Shown: positions 60,842-61,531, counted from the stretch's first letter. The stretch: 64,000 nucleotides of DNA from Candidatus Parvarchaeota archaeon (GCA_017608505.1 JAFCFT010000003.1:234-64233), one strand, 5' to 3'. Translations and numbers: made by a program. Notes: generated from the letters alone by a model not told the origin.

Positions 60842-61411
60842 TTAAAACTTTTTATCAAGTTCAAACAATATTTTTTTGCCATTTGCAGTTTTTTTCAGCA
60901 GACCAATGCTGTGCAGTTTGTTTAATCTGCTTGATGCAGTTGATCTGCTCAGGCCAACTTTCTTTGCAAAATGCTCTGTTGTTATTGGGCCTGCATCTTT
61001 TAGCACTTCAATAGCCTCCTTGTCTTTAGTGCTTAAGACTTTTAGTTTTGCAATCACATCATCTAGGGTTTCTGTTGGCATTCCAGCTTCCTTTAATTTG
61101 TGCTTTTCTTTAGTCAATAGATTAATTATTTCATCTAATTTACTTAATTTGTCAAGTTTGCTGTTAATGCTTTCCAAAATGCCTGCTAATTGCTCTAAAA
61201 TTGAAGTATTTATCAATCTTAATTGGGACAAAGGGTGTTTTTCAAGCTTTTTTATTGTCTGAACCCAGTCTTTAATGAGCACGTCACTTGTTCCAACAGT
61301 TCCAACAGGTTTTTTCTTAATTGGCTTTTTAACTTCAACAGTTGTTCCAACACTTTTCTTTTTCTTTTTTGCAACCTTCTTTTTCTTCCTGAATTTATCA
61401 AAAAAGCCCAT
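60842..61411 (-). CDS. Coiled-coil plus C-terminal wHTH DNA-binding protein (189 aa)
   Basis: Lys-rich N-terminus with VGT repeats. C-terminal TTEHFAKKVGLSRSTASSRLNKLHSIGLLKK is MarR/ArsR-like. Confidence 0.55.
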   Translation of the reverse strand: MGFFDKFRKKKKVAKKKKKSVGTTVEVKKPIKKKPVGTVGTSDVLIKDWVQTIKKLEKHPLSQLRLINTSILEQLAGILESINSKLDKLSKLDEIINLLTKEKHKLKEAGMPTETLDDVIAKLKVLSTKDKEAIEVLKDAGPITTEHFAKKVGLSRSTASSRLNKLHSIGLLKKTANGKKILFELDKKF

Positions 61412-61447
61412 TATTTAATAATAAACGCTGCAAACTATTAAATATTT

Positions 61448-61531
61448 TGTTCCAACACATCCAACACATGTTCCAACACATTCGACAGGTGTTCCAACAA
61501 TTTCGACACATGTTCCAACACTTTAGACATA
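61448..61531. repeat. Tandem 21-bp repeat x4 (TGTTCCAACA + T[CT]CRACA half-unit)
   Basis: TGTTCCAACA at 61448, 61469, 61490 and 61511, an exact 21-bp period. Lies directly upstream of the - strand wHTH gene. The - strand also reads as a 30-aa heptad ORF (61438-61530). Confidence 0.85.

What the first reader, a model, noticed from the sequence alone, without database searches (positions are those of the whole stretch)
61289..61531. Exact 21-bp tandem array that is both a heptad-repeat micro-ORF and a putative operator, with the same motif reused in the adjacent gene
TGTTCCAACA recurs at 61448, 61469, 61490 and 61511 (period 21 bp, about two helical turns). A second half-unit T(C/T)CRACA is interleaved at the same period. 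On the - strand the array is an ATG-to-TAA ORF (61530 to 61438) encoding MSKVLEHVSKLLEHLSNVLEHVLDVLEQNI. That is four near-perfect heptads, a leucine-zipper-like 30-mer ending 27 nt upstream of the wHTH gene start. The same DNA motif occurs three more times inside the 5' coding region of that wHTH gene (61289-61307, 61343-61353). There it is read in a different frame as Val-Gly-Thr. Conservation of the DNA word across two reading frames argues for a DNA-level function, such as autoregulatory operator or iteron sites for the wHTH protein. The clean heptad ORF is hard to dismiss, however.
Basis: seen in the sequence. Interest (0 to 1): 0.6.

Follow-up and report, generated by a model that had tools for sequence, protein, structure and literature searches.

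The report
Conserved operator array of DPANN regulator
The 21-bp repeat array is a DNA docking site, not a peptide gene: in many genera of tiny DPANN archaea the same short word is repeated directly in front of the same uncharacterised winged-helix protein gene, and this is the only such cluster in the genome.

Summary
GTTCCAACA occurs 7 times in the window, all within 61290-61520, against 0.34 expected. This is the only such cluster in the 916-kb genome of a Nanoarchaeia (DPANN) MAG.

The array is a conserved cis-element. In 42 non-redundant orthologous loci, the word TGTYGRA (gene-strand orientation) occurs at 25/kb in the 250 bp upstream of the wHTH gene. Elsewhere it occurs at 0.29/kb. The words are nearly all in one orientation and are spaced 9/12 bp, giving the 21-bp unit. 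Genomes without the gene have no such cluster. The recognition helix SRSTAS-x-RLN is almost invariant, and its variable residue tracks the word variant.

The heptad micro-ORF is a by-product of the DNA period:
- All six frames are stop-free across the array.
- Word phase is mixed in 12 of 19 orthologous arrays.
- No peptide is conserved.
- The codons used (GTG, TTG) are minor in this genome.

The intragenic VGT copies are real DNA words. In relatives they form the palindrome TGTTGRAACNGTTCCAACA (VGT-VPT), and that palindrome also occurs in non-coding promoters.

The best reading is a cognate multi-site operator for autoregulation. A centromere-like or organising role remains open. No pair sites above background occur elsewhere in the genome, and an oriented CTCACTT cluster is conserved further upstream.

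The parts
61448..61531 (-). Word array: four 21-bp units. There are 7 strict words TGTYGRA (gene-strand orientation), read on the + strand at 61451, 61460, 61472, 61481, 61493, 61502 and 61514, plus one degenerate word at 61523. Spacing alternates 9 and 12 bp.
   Evidence: The same array type lies upstream of the orthologous gene in 40 of 42 non-redundant loci.
61437..61448 (-). AT box AAAATATTTAAT, directly after the last word and centred about 31 nt before the ATG. It is an inferred TATA-like promoter element, which would give a leaderless or short-leader mRNA.
   Evidence: Sequence. The same box, CAAAATATTTAA, follows the words in L014, L052 and L060. No transcript data were available. A strict TATA consensus scan was uninformative.
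60842..61411 (-). Gene for a 189-aa protein. It has a conserved N-terminal MG-phi-phi-D motif, a Lys-rich disordered linker, helix 42-57, an invariant HPLSQ turn, a long helix 63-108 and a C-terminal wHTH (128-185) with recognition helix LSRSTASSRLN.
61334..61352 (-). Intragenic words TGTTGGA (61346-61352; S20-V-G-T23) and TGTTGAA (61334-61340; T24-V-E26), 12 bp apart. They lie 105 and 117 bp downstream of the last array word.
61290..61307 (-). Intragenic pair of exact words TGTTGGAAC, 9 bp apart (P35-V-G-T-V-G-T41).
61438..61530 (-). Judged not to be a gene.
61641..61883 (-). Oriented cluster of five CTCACTT(T) copies, read as AAAGTGAG on the + strand at 61641, 61728, 61766, 61816 and 61876, plus a degenerate AAAGCGAG near 61698. 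They sit in a polypyrimidine (gene-strand) tract between the upstream gene and the array. This is a conserved second element of the locus; its function is unknown.
   Evidence: 35 of 36 orthologous loci have at least 2 forward copies at -700..-150 (118 forward, 0 reverse).

Best explanation
The array is a conserved, multi-site DNA docking platform (operator) for the protein encoded immediately downstream.

Shown by computation:
- The word ANG-TGTTGGA(AC), with variant TGTCGAA, is repeated head-to-tail in the orientation of the gene. Centre-to-centre spacing is 9 and 12 bp, giving 21 bp, or two helical turns.
- The words abut or straddle the AT-rich promoter box of a coiled-coil wHTH gene in every lineage of Nanoarchaeia that has the gene. 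They are absent where the gene is absent.
- It is the only cluster of these words in this genome.

Inferred:
- Dimers of the wHTH protein, held together by the long helix 63-108, each occupy one 21-bp unit (two words).
- They line up on one face of the DNA as a cooperative nucleoprotein filament of about 4 dimers.
- The filament reaches the BRE/TATA box. With the four in-phase words inside the first 120 nt of the coding region, it brackets the transcription start.
- Rising protein concentration therefore shuts off (autoregulates) its own promoter.

The 'VGT' tripeptides are the price the disordered Lys-rich linker pays for carrying these downstream sites. The 30-codon heptad ORF is an automatic by-product of a stop-free 21-bp period and is not a gene.
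For: (1) Enrichment and uniqueness. GTTCCAACA occurs 7 times against 0.34 expected. It is the only cluster in the genome.

(2) Conservation with the gene.
- All 19 orthologous loci from about 19 genera show the array.
- In 42 non-redundant loci, forward words occur at 25.2/kb in the 250 bp upstream. Reverse words occur at 2.6/kb, and words elsewhere at 0.29/kb/strand.
- 37 of 42 loci have at least 3 strict words.

(3) Co-occurrence. Clusters of 3 or more word pairs occur only beside the wHTH gene (11 genomes listed). Genomes lacking the gene have only scattered singletons.

(4) Geometry.
- Of 233 spacings, 95 are 9 bp, 42 are 12 bp and 32 are 21 bp.
- The other spacings lie closer to multiples of 10.5 than random expectation (1.7 against 2.6), and only 38 of these 96 are multiples of 3.
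- Close relatives L010 and L049 differ by exactly one 21-bp unit.

(5) Protein-site co-variation.
- The recognition helix SRSTAS-x-RLN is invariant apart from x.
- Loci with x = S or T carry about 80% TGTTGGA.
- The x = F clade carries 42% TGTCGAA, 28% TGTTGAA and 30% TGTTGGA.
- The x = Y lineage (L047, L072) has none of these words and has other repeats instead.

(6) Intragenic sites are DNA words.
- All 14 forward words in the linker are preceded by a T-ending codon.
- They use Val GTT or GTC only, and GTC occurs only with GAA, which matches the word grammar of the arrays (codon usage).
- L011, L012 and L051 encode VGT-VPT or VET-VPT as the palindrome TGTTGRAACNGTTCCAACA.
- The same palindrome sits in non-coding promoter DNA in L014, L052, L060 and L051.
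- Distances to the array are mostly near whole helical turns: 10.0, 11.1, 14.3 and 15.1 here.

(7) Position relative to the promoter. In about half of the loci, words lie between the AT box and the ATG. That covers the expected start site and is a repressor-type position.

(8) The micro-ORF is rejected.
Against: - No binding, transcript or start-site data exist.
- The promoter box is inferred from sequence only, and a strict TATA scan was uninformative.
- In this window the array lies upstream of the AT box, where archaeal activators usually bind. The sign of regulation is therefore uncertain.
- No word-pair sites above background occur elsewhere in the genome: 29 against 28 for the reversed control. 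A regulator with no target but itself is biologically odd. This hints that the complex itself, rather than regulation, may be the product.
- The protein-word co-variation rests on few independent evolutionary events.
- The genome is 86% complete, so other sites could be missing.
Confidence: 0.7

Rival explanations
1. Centromere-like or chromosome-organising site. The array, together with the upstream CTCACTT cluster, is the single chromosomal address of a structural DNA-binding protein. The protein's conserved N-terminal MG-phi-phi-D motif and basic linker would tether the complex to the membrane or to a partner. Autoregulation would be a side effect, as in TubR/tubC or ParR/parC.
For: - It is the only cluster in the genome, and no other pair sites exceed the control.
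- There are 5 to 12 same-orientation sites in every lineage, more than simple repression needs.
- The locus is a conserved composite: an oriented CTCACTT cluster at 6.0/kb against 0.35/kb, 118 forward and 0 reverse copies, in 35 of 36 loci.
- The N-terminal motif is conserved in nearly all orthologues.
- TubR centromeres are likewise direct repeats in blocks upstream of tubR, and they double as operators (PMC6009700).
Against: - No NTPase or motor gene, and no other informative partner, lies in the neighbourhood.
- The gene is present in only 32 of 61 relatives, and in 17 of 44 high-quality genomes.
- AlphaFold2 gives no confident helix for residues 1-40.
- Membrane binding rests only on a remembered resemblance.
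- The site is not origin-proximal: it lies 160 to 210 kb from orc1 in two large contigs.
Confidence: 0.22
2. The array encodes a translated 30-aa leucine-zipper-like micropeptide, alone or in addition to its DNA role.
For: - There is an ATG-to-TAA frame with V/L at heptad a/d positions.
- 175 of 233 word spacings across orthologues are multiples of 3.
- The VLE frame is stop-free over the array in 14 of 19 loci.
Against: - All six frames are open over the array here. Three overlapping ORFs of 30 aa or more exist.
- The 9 + 12 = 21 spacing explains the multiples of 3.
- Words change codon phase inside 12 of 19 arrays. L022, for example, has spacings of 10, 10, 12, 12, 9, 10 and 12 with perfect words.
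- The nearest relative has no ATG.
- Word positions that would be synonymous third positions are invariant G in 278 of 278 words.
- The TTG to TCG change (Leu to Ser at a core position) is the commonest variant.
- Codon usage is atypical.
Confidence: 0.03
3. Replication origin repeats (ORB-like) or plasmid/virus iterons with an initiator gene.
For: There are tandem direct repeats next to a winged-helix gene. AT-rich and strand-asymmetric DNA lies nearby. The first six bases, GTTCCA, recall archaeal ORB cores (from memory).
Against: - Orc1/Cdc6 is on other contigs here. It is 160 kb and 210 kb away in G001 and G052.
- In the 727-kb contig of the same-genus relative, the cumulative GC-skew minimum (110 kb) coincides with orc1 (118.6 kb). 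The wHTH locus at 279 kb is only a local maximum at a gene-orientation switch.
- The context is chromosomal (tRNAs, housekeeping genes), and an upstream neighbour is syntenic in 9 of 19 loci across families.
- All repeats point one way, unlike ORBs that flank an unwinding element.
Confidence: 0.03
4. The words are bound by a different, unlinked factor, for example a general regulator that activates this promoter. The wHTH protein would then have other targets.
For: Binding is untested. In this window the array lies upstream of the AT box, an activator-like position.
Against: - Word clusters occur only where the gene occurs, always directly upstream and in its orientation.
- The word variant tracks the wHTH recognition-helix residue.
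- No other word clusters exist for a general factor to use.
Confidence: 0.05

Closest known systems
TubR / tubC (type III partition of Bacillus plasmids and a Clostridium prophage; PMC6009700)
   Same: A wHTH protein whose binding site lies directly upstream of its own gene. The site consists of several short direct repeats split into blocks. The nucleoprotein filament or ring also covers and represses the promoter.
   Different: - TubR is about 10 kDa and has no coiled coil or N-terminal motif.
- It is encoded with the tubulin-like motor TubZ on plasmids or prophages.
- Here the locus is chromosomal, class-wide, monocistronic, and has no NTPase neighbour.
- TubR was not among the Foldseek top hits.
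ParR / parC of plasmid R1 (type II partition; from established knowledge)
   Same: About ten direct repeats at roughly one helical turn, flanking the promoter of the operon that encodes the binding protein. Cooperative binding produces both a segrosome and autorepression.
   Different: ParR is a ribbon-helix-helix protein, works with the actin-like ParM, and is plasmid-borne. None of these applies here.
Archaeal autoregulated wHTH proteins that bind several regularly spaced sites in their own control region: Ss-LrpB (from knowledge) and the Lrs14 family (PMC11841832, listed)
   Same: An archaeal wHTH protein with multiple sites in its own promoter, cooperative occupancy, and a possible dual role as regulator and nucleoid-associated protein.
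   Different: - Those sites are palindromic boxes, few in number (about 3), and further apart.
- This protein scores far below the Lrs14 and ArsR/SmtB cut-offs: 26 against 90 bits, and 28 against 55 bits.
- It also has a unique N-terminal half.
Iteron / Rep systems of theta plasmids (from knowledge)
   Same: Tandem direct repeats of about 20 bp, phased with the helix and bound by a winged-helix protein encoded next to them. The Rep gene is autorepressed.
   Different: No replication context was found. The protein has one wHTH plus a coiled coil rather than two WH domains. The locus is chromosomal and vertically conserved.
SegB and ParB centromere binders (PMC8682754 and PMC12139799, listed), and membrane-tethering DNA binders with an amphipathic helix such as Noc and RocS (from memory and earlier scan note e1-944684)
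   Same: A site-specific DNA binder whose high-affinity sites sit next to its own gene. There may be a short terminal motif for tethering.
   Different: No ParA/SegA partner is adjacent. The fold differs (wHTH against RHH or ParB). Membrane binding has not been tested.

Membership tests
wHTH DNA-binding proteins (MarR/ArsR/TrmB-like superfamily) | Winged helix-turn-helix domain | tested here: met
   Pfam HTH_24 scores 26.8 bits against a cut-off of 21.9. MarR_2 and TrmB match all 23 family members. AlphaFold2 residues 128-185 form H-H-H-strand-strand with pLDDT 84-90. Foldseek hits CzrA, SmtB, MarR and CodY wHTH domains.
ArsR/SmtB or Lrs14 curated families | Score above the curated family cut-off | tested here: not met
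   NF033788 scores 28.2 against 55 bits. NF040939 (Lrs14) scores 26.2 against 90 bits.
Autoregulatory operator | Binding sites of the protein in or next to its own promoter, conserved with the gene | tested here: met
   The positional and phylogenetic part is met. Physical binding was not tested.
Autoregulatory operator | Protein binds the sites and changes transcription of its own gene | not testable with these tools
TubR/tubC type III partition | Adjacent TubZ (tubulin-like GTPase) motor gene | tested here: not met
   Neighbours within 1.5-2.5 kb in 19 loci have no NTPase. Pfam hits are none, HNH or metallo-beta-lactamase only.
TubR/tubC type III partition | Centromere of direct repeats in blocks upstream of the binder's gene | tested here: met
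   (two blocks in the f10 clade), and 55 for the definition.
ParR/parC type II partition | Ribbon-helix-helix binder and actin-like ParM | tested here: not met
   The fold is wHTH. No ParM-like neighbour was found.
Archaeal replication origin (ORB repeats) | Adjacency to orc1/cdc6 and/or a GC-skew extremum | tested here: not met
   orc1 is on other contigs, or 160-210 kb away. In G001 the skew minimum falls at orc1 and not at this locus.
Translated micro-ORF / leucine-zipper micropeptide | Reading frame, start codon and peptide conserved in orthologous loci, with synonymous variation | tested here: not met
ESCRT-III / PspA superfamily (a lead from the N-terminal MGLFD-like motif and a weak CHMP1B hit) | Snf7 or PspA_IM30 core recognisable | tested here: not met
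   The only support is a profile hit to CHMP1B at E = 0.01 and 18.8 bits. No Snf7 or PspA Pfam family appears among the 25 families listed for the 23 members. Foldseek gives no ESCRT-III hit.

The most novel reading that the evidence does not exclude
The conserved 1-kb unit is a motor-less chromosomal 'address' of Nanoarchaeia. The unit consists of:
- an oriented CTCACTT cluster;
- a helically phased TGTYGRA array;
- a wHTH gene carrying in-frame copies of its own site;
- a conserved N-terminal MG-phi-phi-D tether motif on the protein.

On this reading it is a centromere-like or membrane- or partner-anchoring organising centre. Its only specific binding site in the genome lies at its own gene. 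Autoregulation would be secondary.
Probability: 0.22. Interest if true: 0.85.

Novelty: new variant of a known kind. Interest (0 to 1): 0.55.

Why it matters
DPANN archaea are uncultured or hard to culture, and almost nothing is known about their gene regulation or chromosome handling. This locus offers an experimentally tractable pair. The protein is 189 aa with an invariant recognition helix. Its predicted 7-9-bp word has defined 9/12-bp spacing, is conserved across many genera, and is present once per genome.

The pair could be tested with recombinant protein and oligonucleotides alone. If the complex proves to be structural (centromere-like or anchoring), it would be the first candidate chromosome-organising element in this large archaeal group.

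The case is also a useful warning for micro-ORF prediction. Any stop-free 21-bp DNA repeat automatically reads as a perfect heptad peptide. It also shows a clear instance of a disordered protein linker whose residues (VGT/VPT) are dictated by an embedded DNA site.

Tried and rejected
- **Rfam.** A permissive scan of 60400-63000 found only tRNA-Gln.
- **RNA folding.** The array strand folds with z = -0.86, so it is not a structured RNA.
- **Other genomic targets.** Word pairs with at most 1 mismatch at 9 or 12 bp number 29 outside the locus, against 28 for the reversed-word control. None is credible.
- **Origin hypothesis.** Rejected: orc1 is not near the locus, and GC skew points to orc1.
- **ESCRT-III/PspA lead.** Not supported.
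- **Foldseek against PDB.** Only generic wHTH hits. The N-terminal half has no structural match.
- **NCBIfam and PHROGs.** Only sub-threshold generic wHTH hits.
- **Neighbour genes.** No informative domains and no NTPase.
- **Strict archaeal TATA consensus scan.** Uninformative in this AT-rich DNA.
- **Literature.** No paper describes this family or word in archaea.
- **Second coiled-coil/wHTH gene in the window, 63491-63976.** It has no comparable array upstream.
Only weak or degenerate versions occur here. I did not pursue them.

Full report
**1. The observation**

- The window comes from contig C11 of a 916-kb, 35% GC, 86%-complete MAG. Homologues and record titles place it in Nanoarchaeia/Woesearchaeota-type DPANN archaea.
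- TGTTCCAACA sits at 61448, 61469, 61490 and 61511, with T(C/T)CRACA interleaved.
- GTTCCAACA occurs 7 times in the window, all in 61290-61520, against 0.34 expected.
- Genome-wide there are only 7 further scattered copies, against 8 for the reversed control. No other cluster exists.
- The wHTH gene 60842-61411 (-), the 30-codon frame 61438-61530 (-) and the intragenic copies are all as described.

**2. What the array is**

I searched 60 relatives of the same class with the 189-aa protein. 32 of the 61 genomes searched (the window's own included) have a match, typically a single copy at 36-65% identity.

- All 19 loci fetched show a run of TGTTGGA(ACA), TGTCGAA or TGTTGAA words immediately upstream of the start codon, in the orientation of the gene.
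- Adding genome and metagenome contigs gave 42 non-redundant loci.
- Forward words occur at 25.2/kb in the 250 bp upstream. Reverse words occur at 2.6/kb, and words elsewhere in the loci at 0.29/kb/strand. 37 of 42 loci have at least 3 strict words.
- The extended consensus is A-N-G-TGT(T/C)G(G/A)A. The types are TGTTGGA (151), TGTCGAA (78) and TGTTGAA (48), with TGTCGGA seen only once. Positions 4 and 6 therefore co-vary.
- Spacings are dominated by 9 (95), 12 (42) and 21 (32). The functional unit is thus two words 9 bp apart, repeated every 21 bp, which is two helical turns.
- The remaining spacings cluster near multiples of 10.5 rather than multiples of 3.
- Two near-identical relatives (L010, L049) differ by exactly one 21-bp unit.

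**3. The array and the gene travel together**

A pattern search for word pairs in the same 61 genomes finds clusters only on the contig of the wHTH gene and within a few hundred bp of it. The genomes are G012, G015, G023, G024, G026, G028, G040, G042, G051, G052 and G057. Genomes without the gene show only scattered singletons at control level.

- The protein's recognition helix, (L/I/V)SRSTAS-x-RLN, is invariant apart from x. This parallels the near-invariance of the word.
- Loci with x = S or T carry about 80% TGTTGGA.
- The x = F clade carries 42% TGTCGAA and 28% TGTTGAA.
- One x = Y lineage (L047, L072) has none of these words and shows other repeats instead.

This fits a cognate protein-site pair, although it rests on few independent events.

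**4. The micro-ORF**

The word has no stop codon in any of its six frames. All six frames are therefore open over the array, and three ORFs of 30 aa or more overlap it. A 21-bp period equals seven codons, so any reading frame through it gives a 'heptad'.

- Across orthologues, the words change codon phase within 12 of 19 arrays. L022, for example, has 8 perfect words at spacings of 10, 10, 12, 12, 9, 10 and 12.
- Five arrays have in-frame stops.
- The same-genus relative has no ATG.
- The predicted peptides share nothing beyond what the words encode.
- In one relative the array is read in frame with the gene as CWN repeats, and in a database protein as VGT repeats.
- Word positions 2 and 5 would be synonymous third positions of GTG and TTG. 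They are G in 278 of 278 words.
- The micro-ORF uses GTG for 5 of 5 Val and TTG for 6 of 7 Leu. These codons make up 19% and 16% in the genome's long ORFs.
- The commonest word variant (TTG to TCG) would put Ser at a core position.

Selection is on the DNA word, not on a peptide.

**5. The intragenic copies**

The four words in the first 120 nt of the gene lie in the disordered Lys-rich linker, where pLDDT is below 50 for residues 8-39. Relatives of the same family and some others carry V-G/E/Q-T-V-P/G/E-T at the same place.

- At the DNA level, all 14 forward words are preceded by a T-ending codon.
- They use Val GTT, or GTC only together with GAA. This reproduces the array's word grammar.
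- In L011, L012 and L051 the peptide VGT-VPT or VET-VPT is the translation of the palindrome TGTTGRAAC-N-GTTCCAACA.
- The same palindrome stands in non-coding promoter DNA just upstream of the AT box in L014, L052, L060 and L051.
- Words in the first 150 nt of the CDS are about 10-fold enriched over background.
- Here they lie 105, 117, 150 and 159 bp from the last array word, which is 10.0, 11.1, 14.3 and 15.1 turns.

They are best read as downstream sites of the same complex.

**6. Promoter geometry (inferred)**

In this window the last word is followed directly by AAAATATTTAAT (61437-61448), centred about 31 nt before the ATG. That is compatible with a TATA box and a leaderless or short-leader transcript. 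The same box follows the words in other lineages.

- In about half of the loci the array continues between this box and the ATG, ending 0 to 20 nt before the start. That would cover the start site, which is the usual position of archaeal repressors.
- In the other half, including this one, the words stop at the upstream edge of the box. In this family, further words lie inside the gene.
- I therefore favour cooperative autorepression, but the sign is not shown.

**7. The protein**

AlphaFold2 with a 23-sequence alignment gave mean pLDDT 71. It predicts a disordered N-terminus, helix 42-57, the invariant HPLSQ turn, a 46-residue helix (63-108), a short helix and a confident wHTH.

- Foldseek and profile searches match only generic ArsR/SmtB/MarR/CodY wHTH domains.
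- Curated family cut-offs are not reached.
- The family is small. Among 1.84 billion representatives, 62 clusters at 50% identity reach E <= 1e-10 and 30 reach E <= 1e-30.
- The N-terminus M-G-(F/L/I)-(F/L/I)-(D/S) is conserved in almost all members.
- Its resemblance to membrane-targeting or ESCRT-III/PspA N-termini comes from memory only. The ESCRT-III lead failed testing.

**8. Rival explanations**

- *Origin or iteron.* Rejected. orc1 is elsewhere. In the 727-kb contig of the same-genus relative the cumulative GC-skew minimum falls at orc1, while the wHTH locus sits at a minor local maximum caused by a gene-orientation switch.
- *Structured RNA.* Rejected.
- *Mobile element.* Unlikely. The upstream 150-aa ORFan neighbour is syntenic in 9 of 19 loci across several families.
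- *Centromere-like or organising role.* Cannot be excluded. No word-pair sites exceed the control elsewhere in the genome, and a regulator that regulates only itself makes little sense. In addition, a second oriented repeat (CTCACTT, 5 copies at 61641-61883) is conserved upstream of the array in 35 of 36 loci, with 118 forward and 0 reverse copies. Against this reading: there is no motor or partner gene, the distribution is patchy, and the site is not origin-proximal.

**9. Relation to earlier notes of this scan**

A follow-up on another genome (e1-1157587) reached the same reading for TGTGTTGGA-like repeats. It also named the CTCACTTT cluster. I re-derived both points independently here.

This work adds:
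- the frame, phase and codon tests against the micro-ORF;
- the intragenic palindrome evidence;
- the recognition-helix and word co-variation;
- the GC-skew test.

**10. Verdict**

The array is real, non-random and conserved. It is a DNA-level element, most probably the cognate multi-site operator of the adjacent wHTH protein (confidence 0.7).
- The heptad peptide is an artefact of periodic DNA.
- The system resembles TubR/tubC and ParR/parC in layout, but fails their membership tests (no motor, chromosomal, different protein).
- The searchable literature does not describe it.

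Noticed in passing
window 61641-61883 (- strand orientation): There are five CTCACTT(T) copies plus one degenerate copy, all in the gene's orientation, in a 250-bp polypyrimidine tract between the stop of the 140-aa gene and the array. The same oriented cluster (2-6 copies at -700..-150) is present in 35 of 36 orthologous loci, with 118 forward and 0 reverse copies. 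In this genome other copies are background, mostly inside ORFs. In some relatives (G018, G033, G035) single copies are dispersed above control. It could be tandem oligo-T terminators insulating the promoter, or a second protein-binding array.
   Followed up: partly
window 60442-60841: The 400-bp gap between the convergent wHTH gene and the 124-aa gene holds several repeats: imperfect palindromes of the form TTTTTG-N3-CAAAAA (60699-60717, 60799-60817, 100 bp apart), an inverted repeat at 60723-60762, and TTTACGAAAAAACGG twice. Relatives show GATTAAAAGTTTTAATC-type palindromes just after the gene (L013, L017), and a degenerate copy overlaps the stop codon here.
   Followed up: partly
window 62312-62764 (-): A 150-aa ORFan with no Pfam or NCBIfam family is the conserved same-strand upstream neighbour of the wHTH gene in 9 of 19 loci from several families. 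It is a possible functional partner.
   Followed up: no
window 63491-63976 (-) and C11 beyond the window end: A second coiled-coil plus wHTH-like 161-aa protein has no Pfam family at significance and no repeat array in the 400 bp upstream.
   Followed up: yes
L047 and L072 (metagenome/genome contigs), 200 bp upstream of the gene: A divergent lineage with recognition helix SRSTASYRLN lacks TGTYGRA words. It carries repeated GTAACG(A/G) / CGTTAC words instead, while keeping two CTCACTT copies. This may be a specificity switch.
   Followed up: no
L018, L024, L025, L026 (f10 clade): The array is split into two blocks about 120 bp apart, reminiscent of discontinuous centromeres. A conserved 110-145-aa ORFan follows the wHTH gene on the same strand.
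   Followed up: no
G001:C5 (727-kb contig of the same-genus relative): The cumulative GC-skew minimum at about 110 kb coincides with orc1/cdc6 at 118.6 kb, and the global maximum is at about 640 kb. This suggests a single origin next to orc1 in this genus. The wHTH gene is the last gene of an 11-gene + strand run, at a convergent junction.
   Followed up: partly
protein residues 14-149 (window 60965-61372): A profile search of PDB sequences gave a weak hit to the ESCRT-III protein CHMP1B (E = 0.01). Pfam and Foldseek do not support it, so it is probably coiled-coil compositional similarity.
   Followed up: yes
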